From the IMG/VR virus record IMGVR_UViG_2639762884_000001: a stretch of DNA of 64,000 bases; one strand, written 5' to 3'. The stretch comes from a virus (lineage: Duplodnaviria > Heunggongvirae > Uroviricota > Caudoviricetes). The translations under genes and the position numbers were made by a program. The notes beneath the pieces are model-generated. The model was given only the letters and a program-made list of their open reading frames with translations. It made no database searches and had not been told where the DNA came from. Of this stretch, positions 5,334-52,334 are shown one piece after another. Position 1 is the first letter of the stretch. The number at the start of each line of letters is the position of its first letter.

Positions 5334-5445
5334 TTAGACACAATCCCTTCTGATTTACACATACCCTAAAACAATTTGTTTTCTGCCTTTTGTTGATTGA
5401 GATAATAAACCACATAAGAAAACAACTTGTTTTGGAGTGGTTTAA

Positions 5446-5745
5446 ATGTTGAACATTACCCAAGCCTACCAGGTGGCATTGATCAGCTCATCTCATACAT
5501 CAGAGGAAGATGCTCGCCGATTCATGATCGCAAGCAATGAGCTGGATTGGGTTTCACAAATTGAGTACGGTTGCATTGTCCACGCCGGGTTACAGGACGA
5601 TGACTGGAAAGATGAGTTGCGTCGATATGGTATATCCGAGGGCGCGATTGCGAACATTCAGAAAGTACTTGATGTAGGCTTTGACTCTGTACATTTTGAT
5701 TGTGGCGCACCGGTCGTTGAAGGGCTTGAGTGCTGGCAATGGTAA
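5446..5745 (+). CDS. hypothetical protein (99 aa)
   Basis: ORF with GGAG RBS; class A palindrome at 5418-5433 immediately upstream. Confidence 0.5.
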   Translation: MLNITQAYQVALISSSHTSEEDARRFMIASNELDWVSQIEYGCIVHAGLQDDDWKDELRRYGISEGAIANIQKVLDVGFDSVHFDCGAPVVEGLECWQW

Positions 5746-5781
5746 TCCGGCAATCGCTTCATACTAGATAACGGAGAATTT

Positions 5782-5967
5782 ATGCTTAAAGAAGACTCAT
5801 ATCTACTAAAGGCGCTTGAAATGCGTGGCGTTGAACCTACAGTGAAAAACGCCCACGATATCTACCTTCAGTTTTCACCGGAGCTGAAACGGCTCATAAA
5901 TCAATACGGGGTTAATGACTCAAGTGTTAAAGCGATGATAGATGATGAATTAGACCATCTTATCTAA
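5782..5967 (+). CDS. hypothetical protein (61 aa)
   Basis: ORF with ACGGAG RBS spaced 7 nt from ATG. Confidence 0.45.
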   Translation: MLKEDSYLLKALEMRGVEPTVKNAHDIYLQFSPELKRLINQYGVNDSSVKAMIDDELDHLI

Positions 5968-6119
5968 TCGTTATCCTATGATAATGGTTTCACTTTGAGA
6001 TTGTTATTTTTCATAGCCAAAGCTGATGTTTGTGGAAGGTGGATTGATAAACGGATGCGTATTTAGGTTATACAAGTGAGAAAATTGATAATATATAAAC
6101 GCGATTTTTATGTGATGGA

Positions 6120-6689
6120 ATGGATGTGATGGAAACCCAGAACCAACAAACAAAACCTCTGAATAACATTTATGCGTGGATTCTAGCGTTCATGCCTTTC
6201 TTCTTTGGAGTATTGCCGGAAGAGTATACCAATTACGCTATTATAATTGGGGGTGTAACTACCATCGGTTTGTTAGTAGCTGACAGAATGGCTCTATCGG
6301 AGTCTGGCTGTGAACCACCTTCAATTCTATGGGGGGTATTCCTCCTGCCTGTCTATCTCTGGAAGCGCGCGACTATTACAAAAGGCAGCAGAGTGCCATT
6401 TATCATAATCGTTGCGTCGCTGGCTTGGATTATCTTCATCGGCATCCCACACAAGGACGAGGTTGCTCTTGAAGAAGCAGCCTGCCCTCTCGTGACAACT
6501 ATTCTGAAAGAGAATAACGGTTCGACTGCACCAAAATGTATGAAGGTGACAATAGAGGACAAGGTGACGGATAAGTTCTATAGAGCAACGGCTACACTAG
6601 ACAATGGTAATGACATTAACATTACTCTGGAACTTACCGGTGACAGGAACTTCTACGTCCGTGTTCCAAATGTTTATCTGAACAACTAA
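6120..6689 (+). CDS. hypothetical membrane protein (189 aa)
   Basis: Several hydrophobic helices (AWILAFMPFFFGVL, IIIGGVTTIGLLV, WGVFLLPVYLW, FIIIVASLAWIIFIGI). Confidence 0.5.
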   Translation: MDVMETQNQQTKPLNNIYAWILAFMPFFFGVLPEEYTNYAIIIGGVTTIGLLVADRMALSESGCEPPSILWGVFLLPVYLWKRATITKGSRVPFIIIVASLAWIIFIGIPHKDEVALEEAACPLVTTILKENNGSTAPKCMKVTIEDKVTDKFYRATATLDNGNDINITLELTGDRNFYVRVPNVYLNN

Positions 6690-7079
6690 CGGTTGCAACT
6701 TATTGATAATGGCGGTCACAATTTGATTCTTTTCTATAAGAATCCGTTGATCGCCACTACTCCCCTTCCATACCTGCAATCATACCCTTAAATATCAATA
6801 GGTTATGGTTGTTTATACAAATAAGAAAACAACTAAATAACAGATCAACGAAACGTCAACGCTTTCACCCGATTTGGTCTAAAAAATTGATGTTTTCACA
6901 CATCACTTCTTATACCCGTAACTCTACGCAGCAGACAGCGCCACAGCGTCCAATTTTCACCACAGACGACTCAACACACCACCAACAAAAACACACGCTC
7001 AAAATCGCTCCCGTTGCGTTACATAACCATATAAACAACTTATTTTCAGGCATAACAAAACAACTAAATAACACACATG

Positions 7080-7200
7080 CCATTCCCCAAAACAACCAAC
7101 CTCTTTATGGCAGGCTACCGAAAAGACCCACCTCTTCTTCCCAGGCTACCGGACAACCAACCTAACTTTCACAGGCAATCCGAAAACATTCATACGCGCG
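7080..7200. repeat. C/A-rich direct repeats (CAGGCTACCG... units), first copy
   Basis: Units starting 7111, 7143, 7175 (caggctaccgaaaagacccacct / caggctaccggacaaccaacct / caggcaatccgaaaacattc) within a roughly 650-nt tract (about 6900-7560) almost devoid of G and T on the plus strand. Confidence 0.7.
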
Positions 7201-7757
7201 ATACCCACGATACGCCATTCCCCAAATAGCGAAGCACACCAGAATCACTGAAACCCCCAACGAAGCCTGTAACCGCAAGGTTTCTCTCAATCCCAAAAGA
7301 CACGAAACATAACAATCACGGGAAATGCCATTACCCAATACACGAATAACTACAAAAGCCTTTCACACACTCCAGACAAACAACTCAAACACAACAACGA
7401 AAGGAATCGCCCACCTGCCATTACTCCATACACAGAGAAGAACAATCACCAAAACGACGAGAACACCCCATAGAAGAACCACCGCAAAACTAACGAAACC
7501 ACATACACCGACAGAGAAAACAACACACCCAATTCACCAACAGAAATAGTCGCCGTATAGAACGTTCTGGAAGGAGTGAGCATTAACGCCTATAGAGAGG
7601 TTGAAACAGATAAAACACGAAGAAAACACAACATGTATAGCGAAGAAGCCAGGTATGTATAAGTGGGGGGGGAAGGAGGGGTGTCGCCTCCTTTTTCGTA
7701 TTTATTCAACTCCTGATTTTATCCCCCGTAACACCCCTACGGTCAGCCTCCGGTCCA

Positions 7758-7897
7758 TAAGGGAAAAGGCTGCATCCCGCTACAGAAACGGCTGGATTGC
7801 CTTCGGGGAACGGCTGGAGGTTTTCAGAGAAACGGTCGAGTTGCCTGTGTGAATTTCGGGAAAAGGTTCGATGCCGGTTCAGGAACGGCGGCGTACC
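7758..7897. repeat. iteron-like direct repeats (RGRAAMGGCTG), cluster 1
   Basis: Six copies: gggaaaaggctg 7761, agaaacggctg 7785, gggaacggctg 7806, agaaacggtcg 7827, gggaaaaggttcg 7858, aggaacggcgg 7881; spacing about 21-31 bp. Confidence 0.7.
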
Positions 7898-8231
7898 GGT
7901 ATAGCGTGAGGGAGAGTTGCGGCTGCCCACCTGTAATGTGCGGGAAGAAGAGAGGCGCTCACGTGCAGGCGGACTAACTTACCGCTGGATTCCCTCTGAA
8001 TGCCCAGCTACAGCGTAATTGTGCCAGACAGCCAACGGGTCACAATCGATTTCAGTAGGTTTTCGGGGAGATGATTATTCTGCCCACCAGCCACCTTAGG
8101 CCACTAAATCAGAATAATGTAAAAAGTGTACTCGGTACTGAACCTGAAAACTCACTGCCAAAACCACATTCACCGGAATAAAATCCTTTTTCGCCTGTGC
8201 GTTATTGCGATAATAACACCATCAAGAAAAC

Positions 8232-8582
8232 ATGTTGTTTAAGGATTGCTTTATGTTTGCAAATATCGACATCAACCAAATCAAGAAATTAACTCAAAAA
8301 GAGTTTGATCAGTTTTATGAGTTAGAAGGTTGGTCTTCCACTCTGATCAATTCGCGGTGGGTGCTTGAGCTGATGACTCGTGATGACGCACCTGCTTTGA
8401 TGATTTGCGACATGGGTGAAGATGCTGACTTTATGGATATGAGCGAATTTTGTGTGGACACATACAACCGCAGCCAGAAGTACTACTTCACATGCGATAG
8501 CGAAAATGACGTGATTTCTAAGGTCTATCTTCACCTTGTCCAGCATTGGGACGTTCAGGAGTTTCTTGAGGTATTCGCGTAA
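8232..8582 (+). CDS. hypothetical protein (116 aa; alternative start 8253 with AAGGA RBS)
   Basis: ORF; acidic Cys-containing product; hairpin 8593-8611 downstream. Confidence 0.5.
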   Translation: MLFKDCFMFANIDINQIKKLTQKEFDQFYELEGWSSTLINSRWVLELMTRDDAPALMICDMGEDADFMDMSEFCVDTYNRSQKYYFTCDSENDVISKVYLHLVQHWDVQEFLEVFA

Positions 8583-8735
8583 TCCCAACCAAAGCCAGCA
8601 TTGCTGGCTTAATTTCTCTATAGCCGCAGGGAGGAACCTGCATATCGATCATGCACCTGATCATTATGCTTTGTAGCCGTTTTCTTACTGGTATTATTTA
8701 CGCCATTGAGAAAACAAGTTGTTTACGGAGTTGTG

Positions 8736-9047
8736 ATGAAAAAATCATTGGTTCTTGGTCTGGACAAAGACCAGAAGAGAAAAGAGAAGCCTGCACTGGT
8801 TGCTCAATTAACTTTGCTAGACATCGTTGCCAATGGAACTTCTATTCGTCTGTTCCGTGAAACAGCGGTGTCTTTCGATAAAAACACCTTTACTCGTTAT
8901 GTAATGAATGTTCGTCGCCAGCGTGGAAAAGGATGGGTGGCATTTCAAAGAATGTGGCCGGAACATCAGCTCGAACTGGCCTTGATGGAAGTTAACCGCG
9001 TGGCCCAGCAAGAAATTCAGAGAGCATCAGTGATGGCAATAGCCTGA
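8736..9047 (+). CDS. hypothetical protein (103 aa)
   Basis: ATG at 8736 preceded by GGAG; class A palindrome 8711-8724 directly upstream. The track ORF starts at an upstream TTG. Confidence 0.5.
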   Translation: MKKSLVLGLDKDQKRKEKPALVAQLTLLDIVANGTSIRLFRETAVSFDKNTFTRYVMNVRRQRGKGWVAFQRMWPEHQLELALMEVNRVAQQEIQRASVMAIA

Positions 9048-9082
9048 TAATGTGCAAGTGGTAATTAGTCGACAGTACGACA

Positions 9083-9110
9083 GCCCCGCCATCCTTACGG
9101 GGCTTTTTTG
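9083..9110 (+). terminator. Rho-independent terminator
   Basis: GCCCCG...CGGGGC stem followed by TTTTTT. Confidence 0.8.
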
Positions 9111-9173
9111 TATTGTAAGTACATACTTATGATCATAGAATATAAAAATAACCAATACACTACGGAGAGTGAA

Positions 9174-9569
9174 ATGACCGTTAAACGCGAAAAACTGACA
9201 GTTGATGTTTACTATGCCTCTGAAACCGCCGAAGGTAAGAATGTGGCAAAAATCACCGTTGTTACGTACAACACCGAAACTGGTGCCGAAGTCCAGGCCA
9301 GTACGATCGTGCGTAAAGGTGATGCCTCCGGCGGCGAGTACGCGACTCAATACCAGTCCATTCTCGATGCAACTGACCCGCTGCTGCTGAAAATCGAGAA
9401 CTACTTCCGCCAGGTTGATGAAGAGGTGTTTGAAACCATGATGAATATGGTTAACACCGTATTCGCCTCCAGCCTGAACACCAGCACCACCTGGATTGGC
9501 CAGTACGGTCTGCGCATTACCTCTGGCATTCCTGCCGACACCTTAATCCCTGAAAGCGTATTCGCTTAA
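9174..9569 (+). CDS. hypothetical protein (131 aa)
   Basis: ATG at 9174 with GGAGAG RBS; terminator downstream. Confidence 0.5.
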   Translation: MTVKREKLTVDVYYASETAEGKNVAKITVVTYNTETGAEVQASTIVRKGDASGGEYATQYQSILDATDPLLLKIENYFRQVDEEVFETMMNMVNTVFASSLNTSTTWIGQYGLRITSGIPADTLIPESVFA

Positions 9570-9579
9570 TCCTCTTTAA

Positions 9580-9606
9580 ATGGCGCGCAAACCGCGCCAT
9601 TTTATT
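9580..9606 (+). terminator. Rho-independent terminator
   Basis: ATGGCGCG-CAAAC-CGCGCCAT hairpin followed by TTTATT. Confidence 0.8.
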
Positions 9607-9686
9607 ATGCCCGATAACAATTTGTTTTCTGCCTTATCTGATTTGTGAAAATGATTTCACTGAAGCAACTTAATAAGGAAACCATC

Positions 9687-10061
9687 ATGGGACTTGATAT
9701 CTATATCGAGACACAGCCTAAAAACGATCTGAATAACGAGGCATCCAGAAAGCAGGTTGCTTACTTCCGTAAGTTCAATGCGCTCGTGGGGTGGATGGAG
9801 CGCAACGTAGGTGAAGTCGAAAATTGTGAGCTTTTAGAATTAACGATGAATGACATTTGTCTTCTGAAAGCTCATTTGATGCACATAAACGAAAGCAATT
9901 GCGAAGAGTACTTGCCTACTCGGGAAGGTTTTTTCTTCGGCAGTCAGGAGTACGACGAAGGTTACTGGCATGACGTGGATAAGCTGAAAAAACTTGTGGA
10001 AGACCTGATCAGGAACCACGACTTTAACAATAACAGACTGACCTTCTGCGCCTGGTGGTAA
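9687..10061 (+). CDS. hypothetical protein (124 aa)
   Basis: ATG at 9687 with AAGGA RBS; class A palindrome at 9616-9628. Confidence 0.5.
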   Translation: MGLDIYIETQPKNDLNNEASRKQVAYFRKFNALVGWMERNVGEVENCELLELTMNDICLLKAHLMHINESNCEEYLPTREGFFFGSQEYDEGYWHDVDKLKKLVEDLIRNHDFNNNRLTFCAWW

Positions 10062-10063
10062 AT

Positions 10064-10207
10064 ATGGGCGATTTCAAGAAACGCCTGAAGGAAAGAGCCG
10101 AGATGGTCAGAAAGCAAAACGCCTCTTCTGTCATCAGATACGCAAGGCAGTTTAGTCGCAACAACAAATCAGTTGAGGAAAAGATCCTTAGCGTAATCGG
10201 TCGATAA
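10064..10207 (+). CDS. small basic hypothetical protein (47 aa)
   Basis: ATG one codon after the preceding stop, GGTGGTAA upstream; below the track size cutoff; hairpin follows. Confidence 0.3.
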   Translation: MGDFKKRLKERAEMVRKQNASSVIRYARQFSRNNKSVEEKILSVIGR

Positions 10208-10254
10208 TTATTAAGGCCATCAGCATTGGTGGCCTTAAATGACCATCCTGTTTC

Positions 10255-10345
10255 CCGCAGGCTAAAAACACCAACCTCTTACCTCCAGGCAACCGACAAA
10301 CCCACCTGTTCCCGTCCGGCTACCGCAACTTTCCACTTTGACGCC
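10255..10345. repeat. C/A-rich direct repeats, second copy
   Basis: caggctaaaaacaccaacct / caggcaaccgacaaacccacct / cggctaccgcaactttcc, paralogous to 7111-7195. Confidence 0.65.
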
Positions 10346-10411
10346 TTATTCGTACAACGATAATTAACACCAACAAGAAAACAATTTGTTATTTACGATA
10401 AGGAATTAATC

Positions 10412-10894
10412 ATGAATTTTATCGCTACTGTAAACGCACCCGCACATGGCAATATCGCTGTAACGTTCTCTGACATTGAAAAACGAGTACTTGGTGCATG
10501 GCGCGACAATGAGACGGTAGAACTGTCAGCACAAGAAAAATGCATTATTGCACGCGACATCATTGGCAATCGTCGTTACTCGCGGGTATTTGAGAAAGCG
10601 TATGTGGTAAATTCTGGATTCGGAACGTTCGTCTTTCCGGTGCGCTCCGGGCGATTCTGCCAGTCCAAGCTGATTGAGTTCGCTACGCAGATTTCTGTCT
10701 GGATTAAAACTCAATCGTCGTTCAAATTTTCCGACGATGAAGCAGTATCGCAGGGGATGCGGATCGCCAACAATGCAATTAAATGCAAAAACATTACGTA
10801 TACCGCTGGCGTTGATACATGGAAACTGTTTTGCGCTAACTTTATGTTGAATGTATACGCAAGCAACCGCATCCACATCCTTGATGGCGTGTAA
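10412..10894 (+). CDS. hypothetical protein (160 aa)
   Basis: ORF with AAGGAATTAATC ATG; class A site 10377-10390 upstream. Confidence 0.5.
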   Translation: MNFIATVNAPAHGNIAVTFSDIEKRVLGAWRDNETVELSAQEKCIIARDIIGNRRYSRVFEKAYVVNSGFGTFVFPVRSGRFCQSKLIEFATQISVWIKTQSSFKFSDDEAVSQGMRIANNAIKCKNITYTAGVDTWKLFCANFMLNVYASNRIHILDGV

Positions 10895-10940
10895 CTGAGA
10901 AGAGGGCCAGAAACGGCCCTTTCTCTATAGCCACCAGCTG

Positions 10941-11060
10941 CCGCAGGGAAATTTTCAGAGACGGCGAGGAACGTATTCATGAGCCGACGGGAAACGGCCA
11001 GGATTTTTTCGGGAAACGGCTGCATTCGCCTTTGTGTAGAAAAAACATCGGGAAGCTGGT
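10941..11060. repeat. iteron-like direct repeats (GGGAAACGGC), cluster 2
   Basis: agagacggcg 10957, gggaaacggcc 10989, gggaaacggctg 11011, gggaagctgg 11049; the ttttcagag and ggctgcat contexts match cluster 1. Confidence 0.65.
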
Positions 11061-11481
11061 GGAATCCAACCAGCGGTTGTCGGACAGGTGAGCGGGGAAA
11101 ATCATGATGACTTTCGTCGCCTGAGACATCCAGATTTCTTTCGTAGCGTAATCACATATGTGATTAAGTGGTGTGATTATGTGAAAAATCACGCGCACAT
11201 AATACGCGAGCGGATACGGAACAAAACAAAATGCCGATCCGCGCCGACAAATAAACGCGGATCATAAAGCAAGACTAAAAGCCAATGATTAACCATACTC
11301 TATAGCGCAATATAACGCGTTTTAAGCGCGTTAATGTGTTAAGTAATGGGTATGTACTGGTAAGGATATAAAATCGCGTCTATGGCGTTATTTTGGCGCT
11401 TATTTTTATGTTGTTGGAGTGAGTTAAAGACAATAAAAAACGTGCTAATGATGGCGCGTTATGGTGGGAGTATTGGAAACG

Positions 11482-11510
11482 AAAAAAGCGCCCATAGTGG
11501 GCGCTCGATT
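11482..11510. terminator. bidirectional terminator hairpin (GCGCCCA-TAG-TGGGCGC)
   Basis: Stem 11488-11494 / 11498-11504 flanked by an A-run and T-rich tract; ends the leftward operon. An identical hairpin recurs at 11983-11999. Confidence 0.75.
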
Positions 11511-13260: not shown

Positions 13261-13863
13261 TCAAAAAGGCAAAATTCGTTCAACCCAATCGAACAAAACA
13301 ACTATTTTTCTACCGTTCTCGACACGTAGTGTAACCTGACAAGCATCTGCGCCTGCTGACACCCCCTCAATTTCACGGCCATCCGCCATGTACACCCTTA
13401 TAGATTTGTTTGCTTTATAGGCTTGGTTGCAAATTGCAAAAAAATCGCGGCGTGATGGCCGATTATCGACATAATCAGGGTGAACTGTTAATCGACCTTT
13501 GAAATCGTGAGCGATACTGTCAACCACACCTGATTCAATTGTACTAATGCGTTCAAGTGGGAGCCTTATACGATTTTCTTTGTCAAAAGGGGCTGGGCAA
13601 AGGTCAACTTTGTTGCGAGATGGCATGAGGCCATAAACGTACATGCAAAACGCCTGACCATCTTCGAGAGTGACCCTTACAGGAATTTGTTCTCTGCGCC
13701 AGAACATCAGTAGTTTTTCAACGTTAGTGTAATCTCGCGGCAAGAGTTCAGCTTGGATACCGTAGGTAATATCTTTGGTTGTCATGTCATCACAGAGTTG
13801 TTGGCAGAATGTCGATGTCACCAGAATTGCTGGTGAACACCCTGAACGCTTTTGTGTCTCCAT
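13261..13863 (-). CDS. hypothetical protein (200 aa)
   Basis: ORF; no motif recognised. Confidence 0.5.
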   Translation of the reverse strand: METQKRSGCSPAILVTSTFCQQLCDDMTTKDITYGIQAELLPRDYTNVEKLLMFWRREQIPVRVTLEDGQAFCMYVYGLMPSRNKVDLCPAPFDKENRIRLPLERISTIESGVVDSIAHDFKGRLTVHPDYVDNRPSRRDFFAICNQAYKANKSIRVYMADGREIEGVSAGADACQVTLRVENGRKIVVLFDWVERILPF

Positions 13864-14280: not shown

Positions 14281-14559
14281 TTATTTTAATCTGCTTAATA
14301 GCGTTTCGAGATCTTCCTTTGTCATATTAGAGTTCTCATAGATACGCATGATTTTCTCACGAGTCTTAGCGGAAGCCCCGACAGAAGATATAACCTTGTC
14401 AAAGTCGGCCATTGTCAATTGTTCCAGAATGGTATTAATGACTTCAGCCTTAGACATTTTGATATTTTTTTCTTTTAGTTTCACTTGAAACTTTCCAAGT
14501 TTGTCATTGGCCTTATCAGACAATGCTACCTGACAGTAAGTTGTTTTCTTTTCACTCAT
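14281..14559 (-). CDS. hypothetical protein (92 aa), Lys-rich
   Basis: ORF immediately downstream of the helicase gene on the minus strand. Confidence 0.45.
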   Translation of the reverse strand: MSEKKTTYCQVALSDKANDKLGKFQVKLKEKNIKMSKAEVINTILEQLTMADFDKVISSVGASAKTREKIMRIYENSNMTKEDLETLLSRLK

Positions 14560-16166: not shown

Positions 16167-16186
16167 ATAGGTAAGTGATTACTTAG
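16167..16186. promoter_or_regulatory. class B palindromic motif (ATAGGTAAGTgatTACTTAG)
   Basis: In the divergent intergenic region between the helicase operon and the ParB-like gene. Confidence 0.5.
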
Positions 16187-16884
16187 TGGATTGTAGCAAT
16201 AAAATGGATGTAAAAATCACGATTTTGCAGGTTGATGTTGCCAACCTTCGCCCGAATACCTGGAACACCAATTCGGTTGGTGCGCAGAATTTTGAAAAAC
16301 TGAAAGGTTCTATCGAAAAATTGGGCTTTTTTAAGCCAATTTTGGCTCGTGAACTTGAAGATGGATTTTTTGAAATCCTCGGCGGCGAACATCGCTGGCG
16401 TGCCGCTATTGAGCAAGGAATTTCAACGGTTCCAGTGCTTTCTGTGGGCAAAATTAGCGATGTCGTAGCTAAACAGATGTCACTGGTGGACAACGAGCGA
16501 TACGGTGAAGACGACCAAATCGCATTGCAACGCTTCATTGAAGAAATTCAGTCAGAACTTGACTATCAACTGTCTGAAATCGCCCCGTATGACGACGAAA
16601 TCTCGATGGTTTTAGCAAAAGAGGCGGCAATCGACCTTGAAGCACTGGAGGCGTTGTCTCGTGGTAGTGATGAGCCTGTCGATACCGACAAACGAGAGAA
16701 AACCGAACGTGTGGGGGCGGAACATCAGACCATGCGCTTCAAAGTAACTTTCGATGCGTCAGATCGTGTTGCAGAAACCATAAAAAACATCATCAAAGAG
16801 CAGGCTATTAACACCGGTAATGAAATGGAGAACGCTGGTGAGGCTCTGGTGTGGCTGGTCGACTACTACAAGGAGCGTATGTAA
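16186..16884 (+). CDS. ParB/Srx-like N-terminal domain protein 1
   Basis: ILGGEHRWRAA matches the ParB/sulfiredoxin GxxRxxA box; acidic C-terminal half. Track start is GTG; ATG at 16204 is an alternative. Confidence 0.7.
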   Translation: MDCSNKMDVKITILQVDVANLRPNTWNTNSVGAQNFEKLKGSIEKLGFFKPILARELEDGFFEILGGEHRWRAAIEQGISTVPVLSVGKISDVVAKQMSLVDNERYGEDDQIALQRFIEEIQSELDYQLSEIAPYDDEISMVLAKEAAIDLEALEALSRGSDEPVDTDKREKTERVGAEHQTMRFKVTFDASDRVAETIKNIIKEQAINTGNEMENAGEALVWLVDYYKERM

Positions 16885-19457: not shown

Positions 19458-19492
19458 TTCGTAAGACATGCCAGACCTAATTAAACACCCCA

Positions 19493-19533
19493 GAAAACAA
19501 GTTGGTTAGCAGATGCAGTAAACAAGTTGTTTT
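19493..19533. promoter_or_regulatory. two class A half/full sites upstream of the small terminase gene
   Basis: gaaaacaagttgg (19493-19505) and gtaaacaagttgtttt (19518-19533). Confidence 0.5.
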
Positions 19534-40100: not shown

Positions 40101-41849
40101 GCTGCAAACGCTAAACAACTGGAAGTGTTGCAGTCAACGGTAGAGGAAAGCTCCGCTGCCGTTGAAGAAATGAAAAAGACGGTTGCAGAGGTCGATCGTG
40201 CAAGTGCAGAACTGACTACGAACATTGAGGCGTTAGCCAAAACAAATATTGACCTGGCTCTTCGTCAAGATGAAGACCAGCACAAGCAGATGGTCAATAA
40301 CGCGAAGATCGCAACAACACAGAAAACCTTTGCTGATGATATGTCTGCAATGGCCACGAAGGTTGAGGAAATTCGCGTAGAAATTGGCGAAGACATTAAG
40401 GCCAGTATTCTGGAAGAGTCCACCGCTCGTGCCGATGGCGATGAAGCGTTGGCAAAGCGTGTCACTCAGCTGCAATCTAAGTTTGAAGGAGATATCAGCG
40501 CGGCGATTAGTACAGAGCAGGAGGCTCGTACATCTGCCGATGAAGCTCTGACGACACAGATCACTCAGCTTGAGTCGAAAGTAAGCAACGATATCGTCGC
40601 AGCTATTAAGGAAGAGCAAGAAGCCCGAGCAACGGAAGATTCGGCTCTGGCAAGCCAGATCACCCAACTTCAGGCAAAGGTTGATGATGATATTTCTGCT
40701 GCAATACGTAGTGAGCAGGAGGCCCGAGCAAGCGGGGACTCTGCGTTAGCCAAACAAATAAACCAGCTTCAGTCAAAGGTTGACGGTGATATATCCGCGG
40801 CCATCACTCAGGAGCAGGAGGCCAGAGCAAGTGCTGACCAGGCGCTCTCACGAGAAATTAACAGCCTGCGAGCACAAACCGGAACTGATATTGCCGCAGC
40901 GGTTGCTGTAGAGACAAAAGCAAGGACTGATGCCGATAGTGCATTGTCTACCCAGATTACGTCTCTTACAGCAAAAGCTAATGATCTCGAGGCGTCTCTT
41001 GCCAGAGAAACAACGGCTCGTGCAGATGGTGATACCGCTTTAACAAAAGAGGTTTCAAGTTTAAAAGCACAGACAGCGAAAGATATTAGTGCGGCCGTTG
41101 CAGTTGAAACGCAGGCTCGAACTGATGCTGACTCGGCGTTGTCGTCTCAGATCACCAAGCTGACCTCTCAATACAAAGAGGATATTAAAGCGGCTGTAGC
41201 AACCGAAACGAAAACGCGTACAGAGCAAGATGCTGCATTGGCGACTCAAATCACAAACTTAGAGTCTCAAACGGCAGCCAACATTTCCGCGGCGGTCACA
41301 ACTGAAACGACAGCGAGAACGCAGGCAGATAATGCTCTGAGTGGGCGAATCGATACTCTGAAAGCAGAGGTGGATGGAAATACCGCGACAATTCAACAGC
41401 AGGCAACAGCTATTGCTGATACCAACAAAAAAGTGTCAACCGCGTGGACGTTGAAAATGGAGACTTCAACGAGCGGAGGGCAGAAGTATGTTGCCGGTAT
41501 TGCGCTTGGTATTGACACCACTGGGCTATCTCAGTTTTTGGTTCAGGCGGACAGGTTTGGTTTGGTCAACTCTGTTAACGGGAAGATCACAACGCCATTT
41601 GTTATCGAAAACAGTATCGCCTATATGAATGGAGCGTATATCAAGGATGGCACAATCACCAATGCAAAAGTAGGCGATCTGCAATCTACCAATTTTGTTA
41701 GCGGTAGATCTGGATGGCGGTTCGGCAAAAATGGAACGCTTGAGATCAACGGTAATAGCGGCGGCAATGGGCGATTGGTTATAAATGGTCAGCGGATTGA
41801 CGTTTATGACGATAACAACGTCCTACGAGTAAGAATTGGCCGTCTGTGA
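37122..41849 (+). CDS. tail tip / host-specificity protein, lambda gpJ-like, with a long inserted coiled-coil repeat array
   Basis: Several blocks match lambda J by recall (GQYCDEEVDDGFGG, FGCTSRGQAHRVGLWLL, FLTGKITSSELG, GGQKYVAGIALGI...SQFLVQADRFG); residues about 1090-1420 are roughly 28-aa repeats. Confidence 0.9.
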   Translation: MEQFKKKKLPLFIAGAGGKKSSKSSSRTPVEADDTVNSRAMAAILDLLGEGVIGGLVNGARSIFIDDLPIVNEDGSSNFSGITWDFRDGSQDQTPMSGFDFVETPKSVNIQLKKTHYVTVSIDNDEADRVRVIMKFPSLRSIDKKTGDTNGTTVEYKFQIANGDSTFVDVVAEGEKSVGIKLTAKKTGVYYRSYELKLPKPGRAYKVRVVRITDDNSSQYLYNDTWVDSIGEIVDTPMNYPNSVLVGLKVNSEQFGSTMPSRSYLVRGLKIRVPSNYNESSNTYAGVWDGTFKLLSSSNPAWILFDLLTNARYGLGQYVSESMIDLGQLYQIGRYCDEEVDDGFGGKEKRFAINTQITSRQDAYRLIQDIAGAFRGMVFWAGGMVNIMQDSPSDPVMMFTNSNVKDGLFTYKGSARKDRPSVALVTYNNKEDGYKQNIEYVEDQDAMRRYGERKTEVVAFGCTSRGQAHRVGLWLLYTARMESDVITFTAGLDASFLMPGETVLIQNKYRAGKRNSGRIVAFTKNSVTLDAPVSLAKGGCFIRILNQEGKIVERDVLETGENITKVTFSKSLSSAETPVLNGVWTITEPDLEPMRVRIVNIAQGETPGSFDITAVENNPSKYEAIDNGATLIPQNTTVLDPTYSKPSNLQITEGTYLSSPGNLSVKLTATWEGKSPEYWISWRRSDENNVSNWQSARVTEEQYEIVNVAENGRYDFQLYAVSFNGKKTEIISTVYQVLGTMTPPDAPTSLTAVGDYRNVILNWVNPDSVDLDHINVYASQTNNLDTAKLIAESASTTFTHAGLGDSETWYYWVRASNKRGMLSPPNSNLGTEATTRDVLSFLTGKITSSELGQALLEDINSKASQEAVDELNEHINQSVESLEGSVNDVKEDIAELDKQFSDNLADFEIKFNERSDALENAQTELKGEVSATIDKVNEAFEKIDATDAAIVEIENTVSEHDKALANTVEAIKAARDEAAALIAKESEARVEGDAANAKQLEVLQSTVEESSAAVEEMKKTVAEVDRASAELTTNIEALAKTNIDLALRQDEDQHKQMVNNAKIATTQKTFADDMSAMATKVEEIRVEIGEDIKASILEESTARADGDEALAKRVTQLQSKFEGDISAAISTEQEARTSADEALTTQITQLESKVSNDIVAAIKEEQEARATEDSALASQITQLQAKVDDDISAAIRSEQEARASGDSALAKQINQLQSKVDGDISAAITQEQEARASADQALSREINSLRAQTGTDIAAAVAVETKARTDADSALSTQITSLTAKANDLEASLARETTARADGDTALTKEVSSLKAQTAKDISAAVAVETQARTDADSALSSQITKLTSQYKEDIKAAVATETKTRTEQDAALATQITNLESQTAANISAAVTTETTARTQADNALSGRIDTLKAEVDGNTATIQQQATAIADTNKKVSTAWTLKMETSTSGGQKYVAGIALGIDTTGLSQFLVQADRFGLVNSVNGKITTPFVIENSIAYMNGAYIKDGTITNAKVGDLQSTNFVSGRSGWRFGKNGTLEINGNSGGNGRLVINGQRIDVYDDNNVLRVRIGRL
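40380..41380 (+). repeat. tandem roughly 84-bp coding repeats inside the J-like gene
   Basis: About 11 units encoding DISAAI..EQEARASADEAL..QITQLQSKV.. variants. Confidence 0.8.
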
Positions 41850-48221: not shown

Positions 48222-48958
48222 ATAGCGCATATTCAAAAGATCTAAGCGAGTTTCCTCATAAAGGGGAGACTCGTGTTGTTCGTTTTGGCTTTCTTATCAA
48301 TGAAGCCTCCCTCTATAAAATCTCAGAAATTGAAATCATTGAACCAGAAGATGACATTTGCCTGTATGTCTCTATGGAACGTGTAGGTGCGCGCGACCAA
48401 GGCGACCTGAGCGAATTCATCTTAGATCGAGCGGATGAAGATGCCCCTGAAGAAGAGATTATCAAAGAGGTGCTCCAGTCCGGGCTTCTGGACGAAAACA
48501 AAAATACGATCGCTGGTAGGATAGCTCTGCGTGAATATAGTTTTGTTGAAGACGGTAATGAGATCGAATGTTACCAGGTAGCCGGTGTCGAAACTGTCAG
48601 AGAGCGTCGTCAGCGAGGATTGTGTCACCGTACCTATCTCTTTCTTCTTCATTGGTATGAGCATTTAGTCTGCGACGATACACAAACCATTCCTGGTGCT
48701 AAGATCTGGGCAGGGCCTCTCATGCGAACCGGCGATGTGCGTATATACAATGCCAAAACAGAAACGTTCGAGGATGTGTTAGGTGAGTACGGGATGGGGA
48801 AAGAAACCGGATTTTTGCCGTGGAACAGAGGATTGTTGCTTGATGCAGAGTTAAGCTCTTGGCTCCCAAACAAAGTGCAAGTTAACGTTCAGAAATTTAT
48901 CGTACTTATCATCTCCCGCAAAACAAGAACTCCAGTAGGTTTATACCTAAAAGATTAA
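48206..48958 (+). CDS. hypothetical protein (250 aa)
   Basis: ORF overlapping the upstream gene end; strong terminator downstream. Confidence 0.5.
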   Translation: MAPTLDSAYSKDLSEFPHKGETRVVRFGFLINEASLYKISEIEIIEPEDDICLYVSMERVGARDQGDLSEFILDRADEDAPEEEIIKEVLQSGLLDENKNTIAGRIALREYSFVEDGNEIECYQVAGVETVRERRQRGLCHRTYLFLLHWYEHLVCDDTQTIPGAKIWAGPLMRTGDVRIYNAKTETFEDVLGEYGMGKETGFLPWNRGLLLDAELSSWLPNKVQVNVQKFIVLIISRKTRTPVGLYLKD

Positions 48959-48976
48959 AAATCAGGCGACTTTGGT
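48954..48976. terminator. bidirectional Rho-independent terminator
   Basis: AGGCGAC-TTTG-GTCGCCT flanked by AAAAA and TTTTT. Confidence 0.85.
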
Positions 48977-49083
48977 CGCCTTTTTGTTAACAGCCATTGA
49001 TTCTCGCCTAAAAATTCTAAGGCAGCACCTACCATTTAACCTTTACACCACAGCCGTAGGCATTTAGGCTATATCACATATAA

Positions 49084-49099
49084 GAAAACAAGTTGTTTC
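49084..49099. promoter_or_regulatory. class A palindrome (GAAAACAAGTTGTTTC)
   Basis: 35 nt upstream of the ParA-like gene. Confidence 0.55.
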
Positions 49100-49133
49100 A
49101 GACGATAATTATATACGCAAAGGGAACTCTCCA

Positions 49134-49802
49134 ATGACCAAGATCTTTGTGGTTGGCGGCACAAAGGGCGGGCCTGGCAAATCCACCGTTGCCCAGCAAA
49201 TTGCCGTTTGCCTGAAAGTCAAAAAGAAGAAGAAGGTTTATATCACCGATATAGATATTCAGCGCACGACAACGAGCTGGTGTGAAGACCGTCGACAGAA
49301 CGAAGATCTTGAGCTGATTCCTTTTGCATACGTTCAAGATGACATCATTAAGCACCTAAAATCGCTTCAGGGTAGAGCTGAGTATGTAGTGGTAGATGCT
49401 GGTGGCTTTGACTCCGAAATTCAGCGACAAGCGATGCTGATGGCCGACGTTATCATTATCCCGCTGCGTCCTAAGCGTCGTGATTTGAAATCTTTACGTG
49501 ACATCGATCCTATTATCGACAATGTTCGCAATGTAAACGACAAAGTGAAAGTCCGCGCGGTCATGAACCAATGCCCGGCTTTGCCATCACAAGTGTCTCG
49601 CATTCTAGCGGCTAAAGAGATTGTCGAGACGTTTGGCATCGAGTCTGCGCCAGTCAATCTATATAACCGCAACGTCTATGATGATGCGGAAGAGTCTGGT
49701 CGTTCTATCTTTGAAATGACCGGTAGCGAGCGCGACAAAAAGGCGGAAGCCGAGTTTGAAGAATTTGTAGATTATCTGTTGAGTCTGGAGGAAGAAGAAT
49801 AA
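49134..49802 (+). CDS. ParA/MinD-family partition ATPase (small type)
   Basis: Deviant Walker A GGTKGGPGKST, VVVDAGG Walker B-like region; 222 aa. Confidence 0.8.
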   Translation: MTKIFVVGGTKGGPGKSTVAQQIAVCLKVKKKKKVYITDIDIQRTTTSWCEDRRQNEDLELIPFAYVQDDIIKHLKSLQGRAEYVVVDAGGFDSEIQRQAMLMADVIIIPLRPKRRDLKSLRDIDPIIDNVRNVNDKVKVRAVMNQCPALPSQVSRILAAKEIVETFGIESAPVNLYNRNVYDDAEESGRSIFEMTGSERDKKAEAEFEEFVDYLLSLEEEE

Positions 49803-50161
49803 TGTCCATGAAAATGGGTGACCTAGCAAAGCGCAAAGAGCCTGATGCACCGGCTAAGAACACAACTCCTTTGCGCCAACCAATCAGACCACAGGGACGC
49901 CCGACTCGTGGCAAAGAGAAAATTAAAAGCCGCACGATGTCACTGGAAGACGAATACTTCGAACTGCTGGAGATGATGAAGTTCATCCCTCGCTTCGAGA
50001 AGTTCACCCGTTCTGACGTGATTCGCGCAGCCATTTTCCATCTGGCAGAGAAGTCACCGCAGGAAATCGAGGACATCGTGAAACTTAACGAGGCGATCAC
50101 TGCTGCCGATGTCACGATGCGTACCGATGAAATTAAACGCGAGTTAATGAAGAAAGGTTGA
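49802..50161 (+). CDS. small partition-associated DNA-binding protein (ParG/ParB-like, putative)
   Basis: 119 aa, basic disordered N-terminus and helical C-terminus; translationally coupled to the ParA-like gene (TAATG). Confidence 0.5.
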   Translation: MSMKMGDLAKRKEPDAPAKNTTPLRQPIRPQGRPTRGKEKIKSRTMSLEDEYFELLEMMKFIPRFEKFTRSDVIRAAIFHLAEKSPQEIEDIVKLNEAITAADVTMRTDEIKRELMKKG

Positions 50162-50221
50162 TATAAATCTCTAAGGCTGGTCTGCATTGGACAGCCTTAG
50201 AAATATTTCGTTCTATGAAAG

Positions 50222-51295
50222 CTATTCGTAGTTAAGCTCACCGAACAGACTGAACATCAAGTCACCATCCAAAATTTCAAAGGGCAACTCGACATACTCA
50301 TCCTTATGTCTCGGAATTGCGTTGCCGTCGTTAGGGGCATTCTTGGTATAACCTTTTACATGTTTACCGTTTTCTTTTGTATACGGCAGCACGACAATTC
50401 GACCGTGATTTTTTGAAATGATAGTTCCTTCTTTCCAGAGCGTATTGCCTCTTGAGGTGGTTTCGCTTTCGCTAGCAACTTTAACACTCCAACCTACCTG
50501 ATTTTTGTCCTCAAACCAGAAAACAAAGTTGCCAACAACCAGTACCTTTTGCCCATTCCTGAGAGCTTCATCCAGCATTCTTTTTACGCTGGCGAGTTGC
50601 AGTAACCGGTTAGCACGCGGCAGAAGCATTGAGCGAATAGTCGCTTTTGTTTTTCCCCAATGTGCAGCGCCTGATAAACCAAAACCTCTGGCTATGCGTT
50701 CTTGGTAGCAGATCTTCGCTGTCTTAGCTTTGTTGTTATATGAACATTCCCAAGTGTTAGGAGCAACGAGTTGAAGTGAAACTTGGAATTTGGGAAGAAA
50801 AACAAAATGTAAGTAAGGCATCTCGCTTAGCACGTCAAAAAGGGGTTGACGCAAAGTTTCGTAATCTGGGTTAATTATTAACTCATTTAATGTCACTCGC
50901 GGATCGTTGGCGTGTGCCTTAATTGCTTCGTTGAGCATTATATGCTCTTCATCCATGAGACGTGATTTGGCTTTGAGTGCTTTGTCAACTTTCAAACGCA
51001 ATGACTTCTTTTGAAACATAGATAGAGGAAGTTTTTCAATGTCAAAGCTCACGTTTTTATTCAGCTCTAATGCCGCTTTTCTTGCTTCAGGATAGTTATC
51101 GTAGTCGTCATCAAAAGCGTGGTTTGGCATACCACGATCAACATATCGCCGATACCAAGCAAGGGTTCCATCATTACGGAGTTTCAGACAGAACATCGAC
51201 CATTTATTCCGTTCATATTTAGGCTGAGGCCAAAAAGCCAGTTCGGGAAGGCCATATCCTGGAAGTCTATTCATGCGCATGGTGACAATATCCAC
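50222..51295 (-). CDS. hypothetical protein (357 aa)
   Basis: Long ORF convergent with the partition genes; no motif recognised. Confidence 0.5.
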   Translation of the reverse strand: MDIVTMRMNRLPGYGLPELAFWPQPKYERNKWSMFCLKLRNDGTLAWYRRYVDRGMPNHAFDDDYDNYPEARKAALELNKNVSFDIEKLPLSMFQKKSLRLKVDKALKAKSRLMDEEHIMLNEAIKAHANDPRVTLNELIINPDYETLRQPLFDVLSEMPYLHFVFLPKFQVSLQLVAPNTWECSYNNKAKTAKICYQERIARGFGLSGAAHWGKTKATIRSMLLPRANRLLQLASVKRMLDEALRNGQKVLVVGNFVFWFEDKNQVGWSVKVASESETTSRGNTLWKEGTIISKNHGRIVVLPYTKENGKHVKGYTKNAPNDGNAIPRHKDEYVELPFEILDGDLMFSLFGELNYE

Positions 51296-51399
51296 GAGGC
51301 TAAAACACTGATTCTAACATGATCTCCCTTGATAAATCTGTCAATGACATAGCATCTGGGGTTGGAGTCAAATTATGTTGTTCTTGGTATCCATTAGGA

Positions 51400-51455
51400 G
51401 CCTGTTTCTGTATATAAATAATAAGTAACTTATTAAATATATACGGAAGCAGGTC
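51400..51455. repeat. 57-bp imperfect palindromic element, copy 2
   Basis: gcctgtttctgtatataaataataagtaacttattaaatatatacggaagcaggtc; copy of 19401-19457. Confidence 0.8.
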
Positions 51456-51536
51456 TTTTAAAAGACACCACCAGACCAACTCCCTTCCGTTTTCACTTCC
51501 AAAAACTGACACCAGTCGCTATCATCCGCTCATTGT

Positions 51537-51557
51537 GATAAGTAAGTAACTACCTAC
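51537..51557. promoter_or_regulatory. class B motif (GATAAGTAAGTAACTACCTAC)
   Basis: Immediately upstream of 51561. Confidence 0.45.
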
Positions 51558-51560
51558 CAG

Positions 51561-52310
51561 GTGAGCCACATGAGCCAAATCTTTTTCGATACCATCGACA
51601 ACGACCAGTACGACTTCATGACAGAGTGGAATACCGCTGTTATGGACAAGTGGGTCGCTGAAAACATTGGTTTGTCGCGCTGTAAAGACGAGGCTGAACT
51701 CTTCGAGACGAAGTGGTTTGATTACCGCGACATGCATCCTCTGATGGCCACCTGTCTATTTACGGAGGCATACAAACGTCAGTACTCAAATATCATGCTG
51801 ACGCACGGTCGCGAACACTTTGAAACAGCTCCGTTCACCACCGGGTTAAAACGCCTGCCTTATCAGGAGTTGTCGACTGCCAATAAAACGTCGCTATGGA
51901 AAGCACGCCAGTTTGCTGACCGCTATTGCTGCTCATACGACTACTTTATCTCCACCGTTCTTTCCGCAGCTGCACGACGACTGTGGGACAAGCTGCCGCG
52001 TCCGCAGCATTTGTGGCAGCCAGAACTGATTGAGATATTTGAAGATAAATTAGCCAGACGCGCAACAACCCGTCTGGATGACTCTCTGGTTAGCTTTAAG
52101 CATATGGGAGACATGCAGTTCAACCCGATTCAGGAAAGCTATTTTGAGTGGATTCTGGAGCGTTTACGCGCCATCCCCCGCAGCAAGCGCATACGCGCAA
52201 TTTTCTCCGCTATCTGGCTAATGGAAATCGTTCCAGAGCGCCTTATTTCCGCCCACTTTCCAGAAGAACTGGAAGAAGCACGGCGGTTTATTGATCCCCT
52301 ATCTAATTAA
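51561..52310 (+). CDS. hypothetical protein (about 246 aa) at the head of the replication gene block
   Basis: Track start is GTG 51561; ATG at 51570 is an alternative. Confidence 0.5.
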   Translation: MSHMSQIFFDTIDNDQYDFMTEWNTAVMDKWVAENIGLSRCKDEAELFETKWFDYRDMHPLMATCLFTEAYKRQYSNIMLTHGREHFETAPFTTGLKRLPYQELSTANKTSLWKARQFADRYCCSYDYFISTVLSAAARRLWDKLPRPQHLWQPELIEIFEDKLARRATTRLDDSLVSFKHMGDMQFNPIQESYFEWILERLRAIPRSKRIRAIFSAIWLMEIVPERLISAHFPEELEEARRFIDPLSN

Positions 52311-52320
52311 CTAATACTAG

Positions 52321-52334
52321 AAAACAATTTGTTT
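52321..52334. promoter_or_regulatory. class A palindrome (AAAACAATTTGTTT)
   Basis: 20 nt upstream of the DnaB-like helicase ATG. Confidence 0.55.

What the first reader, a model, noticed from the sequence alone, without database searches (positions are those of the whole stretch)
5368..52334. Recurring class A palindrome AAAACAA-N-TTGTTTT immediately upstream of early, partition and replication genes
At least nine near-identical sites: 5368-5382, 5418-5433, 8711-8724, 9616-9628, 10377-10390, 19493-19505, 19518-19533, 49084-49099, 52321-52334, with half-sites at about 6828 and 7062. Most lie 15-40 nt upstream of a start codon. The dyad symmetry suggests a dimeric DNA-binding regulator rather than an RNA hairpin (the loop would be 1 nt). 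I do not recognise it as a host transcription-factor site.
Basis: seen in the sequence. Interest (0 to 1): 0.6.

Follow-up and report, generated by a model that had tools for sequence, protein, structure and literature searches.

The report
Repeated operator palindrome at phage-plasmid promoters
A 15-base palindrome sits at a fixed distance from about ten promoters in this SSU5-like phage-plasmid and is most likely the docking site of a plasmid-encoded repressor that keeps the viral genes silent while the element lives as a plasmid.

Summary
AAAACAA-N-TTGTTTT (2 or fewer mismatches) occurs 12 times in the window against 0.7-0.8 expected. Ten sites are intergenic.

The window is an SSU5/Cyrano-like phage-plasmid of E. 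coli. The motif is equally enriched in relatives from E. coli, Yersinia, Enterobacter and Klebsiella. It is at chance level in Moellerella, Acinetobacter and Aeromonas relatives.

Sites occupy two fixed registers around sigma-70-type -10 hexamers. One lies 12 nt downstream of the hexamer (about +7 to +21). The other ends 18 nt upstream of it (about -45 to -31). Paired sites are 51 bp apart, centre to centre.

The palindrome stays unchanged while its flanks are replaced; only the central base varies. It does not form a favoured RNA hairpin. In published RNA-seq of the near-identical prophage Cyrano, genes behind these sites are silent in the lysogen, except the parA operon.

Best reading: operators of an element-encoded dimeric repressor. 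No binding was shown and the binder is not identified. My favoured candidate (about 40%) is the ParG-like protein at 49802-50161. Its putative DNA-reading residues are invariant across lineages, and its own operon carries the site. I found no published description. This is a new member of a known kind.

The parts
5368..5382 (+). Class A palindrome, upstream-type (operator centred about -38), perfect match; the left member of a paired unit.
   Evidence: A GATAAT hexamer starts exactly 18 nt after its end. A terminator-like hairpin at 5304-5328 lies just upstream.
5401..5406 (+). -10 hexamer GATAAT of the promoter flanked by the two operators 5368 and 5419.
   Evidence: 18 nt after site 5368 and 12 nt before site 5419.
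5419..5433 (+). Class A palindrome, downstream-type (about +7 to +21), perfect match; followed by GGAG and the ATG at 5446.
   Evidence: It lies 51 bp centre to centre from site 5368. The orthologous Cyrano gene CYRAN_101 is silent in the lysogen (7.5 against a background of 9.8).
8227..8241 (+). The gene start is probably 8254, not the ATG at 8232 inside the palindrome.
   Evidence: GATAAT ends 12 nt before it.
8711..8725 (+). Class A palindrome, downstream-type, 1 mismatch.
   Evidence: TATTAT ends 13 nt before it. A hairpin at 8592-8610 lies upstream.
9614..9628 (+). Class A palindrome, upstream-type, 1 mismatch; it follows a terminator-like hairpin.
   Evidence: GAAAAT starts 18 nt after it, at 9647-9652. 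The likely gene start is the ATG at 9687.
10378..10392 (+). Class A palindrome, downstream-type, 1 mismatch, ahead of the gene starting at 10412.
   Evidence: GATAAT ends 13 nt before it.
19494..19508 (+). Class A palindrome, first of a tandem pair ahead of the small-terminase / structural operon. The promoter lacks a consensus -10 (CTAATTAAACACC).
   Evidence: The pair is conserved in Yersinia pMT1 and Kluyvera although the flanks differ. TerS is silent in the lysogen (7.1).
19519..19533 (+). Class A palindrome, second of the tandem pair (25 bp centre to centre), 39 nt before the terminase small-subunit ATG at 19573.
49085..49099 (+). Class A palindrome in the parA promoter region; the only dyad element found there.
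   Evidence: It is conserved at the parA promoter in CP102 (a perfect match) and in Kp1498. A degenerate copy with the same 5' flank is the only such site in the Moellerella relative.
49134..49802 (+). Small Walker-type ParA ATPase (222 aa).
   Evidence: Pfam AAA_31, MipZ, CbiA and ParA. Moderately expressed in the Cyrano lysogen (50).
49802..50161 (+). Favoured candidate binder: a 119-aa ParG-like protein with a basic N-terminal arm and a ribbon-helix-helix-like core.
52321..52335 (+). Class A palindrome, downstream-type, 18 nt before the DnaB-like helicase ATG at 52354.
   Evidence: In 80 IMG/VR relatives the site keeps AG-AAAACAAnTTGTTTA within three unrelated flank versions.
14281..14559 (-). 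Second candidate binder: a 92-aa ribbon-helix-helix-like protein following the UvsW-like helicase.
7032..7046 (+). Doubtful 2-mismatch match inside ORF 6809-7165.
   Evidence: No -10 hexamer in register.
13295..13309 (+). Doubtful degenerate upstream-type match (AAAACAACTATTTTT followed by CT), antisense inside the FljA-like gene.

Best explanation
The class A palindromes are double-stranded DNA operators for a dimeric, element-encoded repressor. The full form is AG-AAAACAA-N-TTGTTTT-CT.

They are built into a family of sigma-70-type promoters, many with a consensus or TG-extended -10 and a poor -35. They occupy two fixed positions. One covers about +7 to +21, where a bound protein would block RNA polymerase from forming or leaving the open complex. 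The other covers about -45 to -31 and overlaps the -35 region. Some promoters carry both, 51 bp apart, which would allow cooperative binding.

In the plasmid-prophage state the repressor keeps about 10 promoters in this window silent, and about 19 in a whole genome. These include early genes, replication and nucleotide-metabolism genes and the terminase/structural operon.

Shown here: enrichment, the fixed register, conservation of the site across lineages, absence of an RNA structure, and silence of the downstream genes in a lysogen of a 94-97% identical element.

Inferred: protein binding, repression and the identity of the binder. My preferred binder (about 40%) is the ParG-like ribbon-helix-helix protein at 49802-50161, the partner of the small ParA. 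It would autoregulate its own operon through site 49085. In the Enterobacteriaceae/Yersinia lineages its operator would have spread to the lytic promoters.
For: Enrichment
- 12 sites against 0.78 expected in the window.
- 19/1.4, 15/0.5, 21/0.67 and 7/0.9 (observed/expected) in Cyrano, CP102, Kp1498 and pMT1; chance level in Moellerella, Acinetobacter and Aeromonas relatives.

Register
- A 5-of-6 -10 hexamer ends 12 nt (range 10-13) before sites that carry a 5' AG.
- A 5-of-6 -10 hexamer starts exactly 18 nt after sites that carry a 3' CT. This holds across five genomes.
- Paired units 51 bp apart recur in the window, pMT1, Kluyvera, CP102 and Kp1498.

Conservation
- The information profile shows every base of both arms conserved and the centre free.
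- Orthologous sites are kept while the flanks are replaced.
- Relatives whose proteins are only 30-90% identical keep the same consensus.

Not an RNA element
- Folding of the 5' UTRs gives z-scores near 0.

Lysogen RNA-seq of Cyrano (PMC9928086, S1 Table; background 9.8)
- TerS 7.1, cobT-like 7.8, CYRAN_58 5.7, TciA-like 7.0, CYRAN_87 7.1, CYRAN_101 7.5, CYRAN_110 6.7.
- The parA operon is the exception, at 50-89.

For the ParG-like binder (49802-50161)
- Its sequence shows a strand-helix-helix pattern with a basic arm.
- The arm, the strand and the second helix are invariant across lineages that are 50% identical overall.
- The class A site is the only dyad in its own promoter region.
- Its operon is the one class A unit that is partly on, as expected for an autoregulated repressor.
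- In Moellerella the only class-A-like site with the type I flank is at parA.
Against: General
- No binding, footprint or transcription start data exist. The start sites are inferred from -10 hexamers.
- The expression data come from Cyrano, not from this exact element. They show silence, not its cause.
- Four promoters lack a recognisable -10: terminase, helicase, and by orthology the cobT-like and nrdB genes. The register argument is weaker there.

Against the ParG-like binder
- Yersinia pMT1 keeps 7 sites but has no homologue of ParA or of this protein. pMT1 is a degraded element, so its sites could be relics.
- Known type Ib centromere-binding proteins bind arrays of short repeats, not isolated 15-bp palindromes (from my knowledge of ParG and omega).
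- Moellerella has a homologue with the same strand residues but no genome-wide motif.
- The recognition helix of the XRE-type putative repressor is also conserved among the motif-bearing lineages.
Confidence: 0.7

Rival explanations
1. The sites are operators, but the binder is the 92-aa ribbon-helix-helix-like protein at 14281-14559 (CYRAN_117 homologue), expressed from the UvsW operon in the lysogen.
Against: The residues of its putative DNA-reading strand differ among lineages that share an identical motif (CQVALS, CQVQLT, CHLKLS). The protein is only 34-62% identical between those lineages. No class A site lies near its own gene. Foldseek found nothing significant.
Confidence: 0.15
2. The sites are operators of the XRE-type putative master repressor (CYRAN_45 homologue, encoded just beyond the right end of the window). 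That would make this a P1-C1-like dispersed operator network.
For: It is expressed in the lysogen (96). It is present in all motif-bearing lineages. Its recognition helix NANN(L/I)S.IK(S/T)G is conserved among them and differs in the Acinetobacter and Aeromonas relatives.
Against: Its own promoter region carries a different palindrome, GGTAAGTGCTTACC, in Cyrano and pMT1. That palindrome belongs to a second, family-wide promoter-associated class also found in the relatives that lack class A. No class A site lies in its divergent control region. Moellerella has a similar recognition helix but no class A network.
Confidence: 0.1
3. A host protein of Enterobacterales binds the palindrome and the element merely exploits it. 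Candidates would be a nucleoid-associated protein such as IHF, or an unrecognised transcription factor.
For: The motif is invariant across elements whose proteins have diverged to 30-60% identity. It is restricted to elements from Enterobacteriaceae and Yersinia hosts.
Against: I recognise no E. coli factor with this site (from memory, not tested). The IHF consensus WATCAANNNNTTR is missed at two informative positions, and IHF sites are not palindromic. The Moellerella relative, also from Enterobacterales, lacks the motif. A host-only repressor would leave the element no obvious way to time induction. I could not scan a host chromosome.
Confidence: 0.07
4. The element acts at the RNA level. 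It would be either a 5'-UTR operator for a translational repressor, such as the FljA-like protein at 13261-13863, or a 5' hairpin that stabilises the mRNA.
For: Downstream-type sites lie between the inferred start site and the Shine-Dalgarno sequence. The element encodes a FljA-family protein (Pfam Flag1_repress, 1.7e-82). From my knowledge, that family acts on fliC mRNA.
Against: Upstream-type sites lie at about -38 and are not part of the transcript they control. The RNA folds are no better than shuffled sequence. Outer-position mismatches are not compensated, and both arms are conserved base by base. The distance to the start codon varies from 10 to 39 nt, while the distance to the -10 hexamer is fixed.
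Confidence: 0.04

Closest known systems
Omega repressor of plasmid pSM19035 (inc18): a ribbon-helix-helix type Ib centromere-binding protein that is also a global regulator
   Same: A small protein, partner of a small ParA, would both autoregulate the partition operon and repress other promoters of the same replicon by binding short repeats in the promoters. This comparison applies only if the 49802-50161 protein is the binder.
   Different: Omega binds arrays of 7-bp heptads at three promoters of a plasmid (from my knowledge). Here there are single or paired 15-bp palindromes at about 19 promoters, most of them phage lytic promoters. No sequence relationship was detected.
KorB and its OB sites on IncP plasmid RK2
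   Same: A partition protein with about a dozen palindromic sites dispersed around the replicon, many at promoters, acting as a global repressor.
   Different: KorB is a large helix-turn-helix ParB (type Ia) that also acts at a distance, and OB is TTTAGCSGCTAAA (from my knowledge). Here the sites are in strict promoter register and the candidate is a small ribbon-helix-helix-like protein.
Phage-plasmid N15: SopB and its four dispersed centromere palindromes
   Same: A phage-plasmid in which partition-protein palindromes are scattered through the genome near phage promoters (from my knowledge of work by Ravin, Lane, Grigoriev and Lobocka).
   Different: N15 uses a type Ia SopAB system and has four sites. 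Here there are about 19 sites with fixed promoter geometry, which points to transcription control as the main role.
Phage-plasmid P1: C1 repressor with operators dispersed over the genome
   Same: One immunity repressor silences many separate operons of a plasmid prophage through operators that overlap promoters. The P1 record lists Oref, Omat, Ossb, Oc4 and OrepL.
   Different: P1 operators are asymmetric 17-mers and C1 is unrelated. In P1 the late genes are controlled indirectly through Lpa, whereas here the terminase operon itself carries two class A sites.

Membership tests
Promoter-overlapping repressor operator | Dyad-symmetric sequence recurring far above chance | tested here: met
   12 observed against 0.78 expected. 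Enriched in four related genomes.
Promoter-overlapping repressor operator | Fixed position relative to core promoter elements | tested here: met
   The -10 hexamer ends 12 nt before downstream-type sites and starts 18 nt after upstream-type sites, in five genomes.
Promoter-overlapping repressor operator | Site conserved while surrounding non-coding DNA diverges | tested here: met
Promoter-overlapping repressor operator | Controlled genes off when the repressor is present | tested here: met
   Published lysogen RNA-seq of Cyrano, 94-97% identical to the window: genes behind the sites are at background, except the parA operon. This is indirect, because no repressor mutant was tested.
Promoter-overlapping repressor operator | Specific protein binding to the site | not testable with these tools
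   Needs EMSA, footprinting or ChIP.
Type Ib partition system (small ParA, ribbon-helix-helix centromere-binding protein, centromere) | Small Walker ATPase without an N-terminal DNA-binding domain | tested here: met
   49134-49802, 222 aa; Pfam AAA_31, MipZ, CbiA and ParA.
Type Ib partition system (small ParA, ribbon-helix-helix centromere-binding protein, centromere) | Downstream small protein with a ribbon-helix-helix fold and a flexible basic N-terminal tail | tested here: inconclusive
Type Ib partition system (small ParA, ribbon-helix-helix centromere-binding protein, centromere) | Array of short repeats (the centromere) next to the operon | tested here: not met
   No repeat array lies within 48700-50400, only the single class A palindrome.
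Type Ib partition system (small ParA, ribbon-helix-helix centromere-binding protein, centromere) | Stabilises a plasmid that carries the site | not testable with these tools
   Needs a plasmid-stability assay.
RNA hairpin or translational operator in the 5' UTR | Stable fold, better than shuffled sequence | tested here: not met
   z-scores from -0.9 to +1.2 for six 5' UTRs.
RNA hairpin or translational operator in the 5' UTR | All copies lie within the transcript they control | tested here: not met
   Upstream-type copies lie at about -45 to -31.
P1 C1-type operator | Asymmetric 17-bp C1 operator sequence | tested here: not met
   Class A is a symmetric 15-mer. The comparison with the asymmetric C1 operator consensus rests on my memory; the P1 record only gave the operator coordinates. 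I did not search for a C1 homologue.
IHF binding site | Consensus WATCAANNNNTTR, asymmetric | tested here: not met
   By inspection of the site consensus: two mismatches at informative positions, and both arms are equally conserved.

The most novel reading that the evidence does not exclude
The partner protein of the plasmid partition ATPase (49802-50161) is at once the centromere-binding protein and the lysogeny repressor of about 19 lytic promoters. The class A palindromes would then serve both as a dispersed centromere and as operators. This would tie plasmid segregation, copy number and the lytic switch to the level of a single protein; for example, replication at induction could titrate the repressor away. 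This regulon would have arisen by spread of the ancestral parA operator, still seen alone in the Moellerella relative, into phage promoters in the Enterobacteriaceae/Yersinia lineages.
Probability: 0.3. Interest if true: 0.75.

Novelty: new member of a known kind. Interest (0 to 1): 0.55.

Why it matters
SSU5-like phage-plasmids are common. My searches of one plasmid collection found about 800 to 1,000 related plasmids, in E. coli, Klebsiella, Salmonella, Enterobacter and Yersinia pestis (pMT1/pFra). In the full-text searches I ran, I found no description of how they control lysogeny.

A defined 15-bp operator with a fixed promoter geometry gives a regulon map of about 19 promoters. It also gives a short list of three candidate repressors and simple experiments to tell them apart. 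If the partition protein is the repressor, it would link plasmid maintenance and the lytic switch, which bears on how these elements persist and spread.

Tried and rejected
- **RNA hairpin.** Folding six 5' UTRs gave no favoured structure.
- **Generic promoter scan.** It did not pick up these promoters, because their -35 is poor. I replaced it with a register analysis of the -10 hexamer.
- **Presence/absence of candidate proteins.** This excluded few candidates, because nearly all enteric relatives carry all three. Only Yersinia lacks the ParA/ParG-like pair.
- **An IncF plasmid carrying the ParG-like gene.** It holds only an IS-flanked fragment with a truncated parA and no promoter, so it was uninformative.
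- **Wider relatives.** The genome-collection scan with the small terminase subunit returned only four close relatives. The IMG/VR scan with a helicase alignment returned only relatives 92-100% identical.
- **Exact-pattern scan of IMG/VR.** Outside SSU5-like contigs it found only single, chance-like hits in AT-rich genomes.
- **Candidate 19111-19377.** Rejected as the class A binder, because it is conserved in relatives that lack the motif.
- **ParB_N proteins at 16186-17552.** Rejected because they are silent in the lysogen.
- **Literature.** Searches for SSU5 with repressor, partition, operator or palindrome found no description of the motif. A FljA search gave no target sequence to compare.
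- **Host chromosome.** I could not scan one for the motif.
Full report
**What the window is.** Megablast of 4500-11500 finds 94-98% identity to about 110-kb E. coli plasmids and to phage Cyrano (pLF82, OV696614), an SSU5-like phage-plasmid. Cyrano's annotation gives the gene names used here. The window covers roughly Cyrano 87.9-108.4 kb followed by 0-41.9 kb. It includes an early region, a minus-strand cluster, the structural operon, lysis genes, parA, and the helicase/primase/ligase genes.

**The observation.** AAAACAANTTGTTTT with up to 2 mismatches occurs 12 times, against 0.78 expected from shuffles. My own resampling gives 8 against 0.07 at 1 or fewer mismatches. The version without the central base is not enriched. 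One more good site is at 8227. Two 2-mismatch matches (7032 and 13295) lie in coding sequence and are doubtful. Ten of the 12 are intergenic in a window that is about 89% coding.

**Anatomy.** Reading the flanks and then measuring them shows two geometries.

- *Downstream-type sites* carry AG on their 5' side. A 5-of-6 match to TATAAT (GATAAT, TATTAT, AATAAT, TAAAAT, CATAAT), often preceded by TG, ends 12 nt (range 10-13) before the palindrome. If transcription starts about 7 nt after the hexamer, the palindrome covers about +7 to +21. A Shine-Dalgarno sequence and a start codon follow 10-39 nt later.
- *Upstream-type sites* carry CT on their 3' side, the mirror image. They are followed after exactly 18 nt by the same kind of hexamer, so they cover about -45 to -31 and overlap a poor -35.
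- *Paired sites.* Where both occur (5368/5419 in the window, and units in pMT1, Kluyvera, CP102 and Kp1498) they are 51 bp apart, centre to centre.
- *Other features.* The terminase operon has two downstream sites 25 bp apart. Several upstream-type sites follow terminator-like hairpins, as expected at the start of a new transcription unit.
- *A subclass without a -10.* The terminase and helicase promoters, and by orthology the cobT-like and nrdB promoters, have CTAATTAAACACC instead of a consensus -10. Their promoter logic is unclear.

**Conservation.** The motif count is 19 in Cyrano, 7 in Yersinia pMT1, 15 in Enterobacter plasmid pCP102 and 21 in Klebsiella plasmid pMB7868_2. Expectations are 0.5-1.4. 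The proteins of these elements are only 30-90% identical to Cyrano's, yet the consensus is the same and the sites sit at orthologous promoters (parA, helicase, cobT-like, TciA-like, terminase). In 80 IMG/VR relatives the helicase site keeps AG-AAAACAAnTTGTTTA inside three unrelated flank versions, and only the central base varies. More distant relatives from Moellerella, Acinetobacter and Aeromonas have the motif only at chance level. Outside SSU5-like contigs, an exact scan of IMG/VR gave only isolated hits in AT-rich genomes.

**DNA or RNA.** Three results point to recognition of duplex DNA by a symmetric protein.

- The 5' UTRs do not fold better than shuffled sequence.
- Outer-position mismatches are not compensated, and every base of both arms is conserved.
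- The upstream-type copies are not in the transcript they would control.

**Function.** PMC9928086 reports RNA-seq of strain LF82 carrying Cyrano. Its S1 Table (background 9.8) shows that genes directly behind class A sites are at background:

| Gene behind a class A site | Expression |
|---|---|
| TerS | 7.1 |
| cobT-like | 7.8 |
| CYRAN_58 | 5.7 |
| TciA-like | 7.0 |
| CYRAN_87 | 7.1 |
| CYRAN_101 | 7.5 |
| CYRAN_110 | 6.7 |
| nrdB | 12.9 |
| CYRAN_105 / CYRAN_106 | 12.8 / 12.2 |
| helicase | 21 |
| CYRAN_111 | 25.5 |
| ParA / ParG-like protein / CYRAN_30 | 50 / 89 / 55 |

Only the parA operon is clearly on. Promoters with near-consensus -10 elements that are silent in the lysogen, and that carry a conserved dyad over the start region, are best explained by repression. 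The same paper shows that Cyrano is induced by ciprofloxacin.

**Who binds.** A repressor must be made in the lysogen. It should also be present wherever the motif is. Three candidates remain.

1. *The 119-aa protein at 49802-50161, just after the small ParA.* Cyrano's annotation calls it RelE/ParE-like. Its sequence instead reads as a ParG-like protein: a disordered basic tail, an arm RPQGRPTRGK, a strand SRTMS-EDE and a helix FTRSDVIRAAI. These segments are invariant in homologues that are about 50% identical overall, which matches the invariance of the motif. The class A site is the only dyad in its promoter region. Its operon is the one class A unit that is partly on, which is how an autoregulated repressor behaves. 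In Moellerella, the only class-A-like site with the type I flank sits at parA. Against it: pMT1 has sites but no such gene, the fold evidence is weak, and there is no repeat array typical of type Ib centromeres.
2. *The 92-aa protein at 14281-14559.* It is well expressed (114), is present in pMT1 and looks ribbon-helix-helix-like. However, its putative reading strand varies between lineages with an identical motif.
3. *The XRE-type putative repressor encoded just beyond the window.* Its recognition helix is conserved. However, its own control region carries a different palindrome, which belongs to the second, family-wide class.

I put these at about 40%, 15% and 10%. A host factor gets about 7% and an RNA-level role about 4%. 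The remainder goes to an element protein I did not single out.

**Comparison with known systems.** The arrangement works like a classical promoter-overlapping operator network on a plasmid prophage, as with P1 C1 (operators listed). If the ParG-like protein is the binder, it also resembles omega of pSM19035, KorB of RK2 and the dispersed SopB sites of N15 (these three from my knowledge). It is not a sequence member of any of these. Searches of the paper library found no description of this motif or of lysogeny control in SSU5-like elements.

**Verdict.** This is a real, strongly supported regulatory motif. It is a new member of a known kind, with an attractive but unproven link to the partition system.

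Noticed in passing
window 9116, 16172, 22966, 28461, 41885 and 60323 (14-mers), plus weaker copies at 34962, 46106, 51543 and 56807: A second promoter-associated palindrome family, TAAGTAnnTACTTA / GTAAGnnCTTAC, usually followed by cTTATc. Unlike class A it is shared by the distant Acinetobacter relative (29 copies, abutting TAATAAT) and the Aeromonas relative (15 copies). A copy also lies in the control region of the XRE-type repressor in Cyrano and pMT1. Its arms match the -22 boxes of P1 late promoters (AAGTnACTT), with a longer spacer.
   Followed up: partly
window 13261-13863, minus strand: A FljA-family gene (Pfam Flag1_repress, E 1.7e-82, with a weak Hfq-like C-terminal match). It is conserved in pMT1, CP102 and Kp1498. 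It may modulate host flagellin expression.
   Followed up: partly
window 8232 and 9645; Cyrano CYRAN_105 and CYRAN_108: The annotated or longest-ORF start codons fall inside a class A palindrome (8232) or next to the inferred -10 hexamer (9645). The better starts, each with a Shine-Dalgarno sequence, are at 8254 and 9687.
   Followed up: partly
window 19470-19493 and 52297-52320; Cyrano 43080 and 70300: The terminase, helicase, cobT-like and nrdB promoters share CTAATTAAACACC(n)AG ahead of the palindrome and have no consensus -10. This suggests a separate, perhaps activator-dependent, promoter subclass.
   Followed up: no
many start sites, for example window 52336-52356: A recurring ribosome-binding context, AACAAAGGAAAgCACATG, precedes many genes in several lineages.
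   Followed up: no
window 1993-3093, minus strand: The gene annotated as MinD in Cyrano is an Mrp/NUBPL-type P-loop ATPase (Pfam ParA/NUBPL, 2.4e-102), not a partition ParA. It is expressed in the lysogen (92).
   Followed up: partly
L008 30780-31445 (Acinetobacter plasmid NZ_CP016299.1): The distant Acinetobacter relative is annotated with a sigma-70 family sigma factor next to its dnaE. No counterpart is annotated at the matching position in Cyrano.
   Followed up: no
L102 15447 (Moellerella plasmid NZ_CP093251.1): The only class-A-like intergenic site with the type I flank in this relative (ataagAAAACAATATATTTT) lies in the parA promoter region. Two direct repeats of ATAACAAGGC lie near the start codon.
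   Followed up: partly
Cyrano 40268-40822 (CYRAN_43), absent from the window: A 184-aa hypothetical protein is by far the most expressed prophage gene in LF82 (about 7000 against a background of 9.8). It has no homologue in the window, pMT1 or CP102.
   Followed up: no
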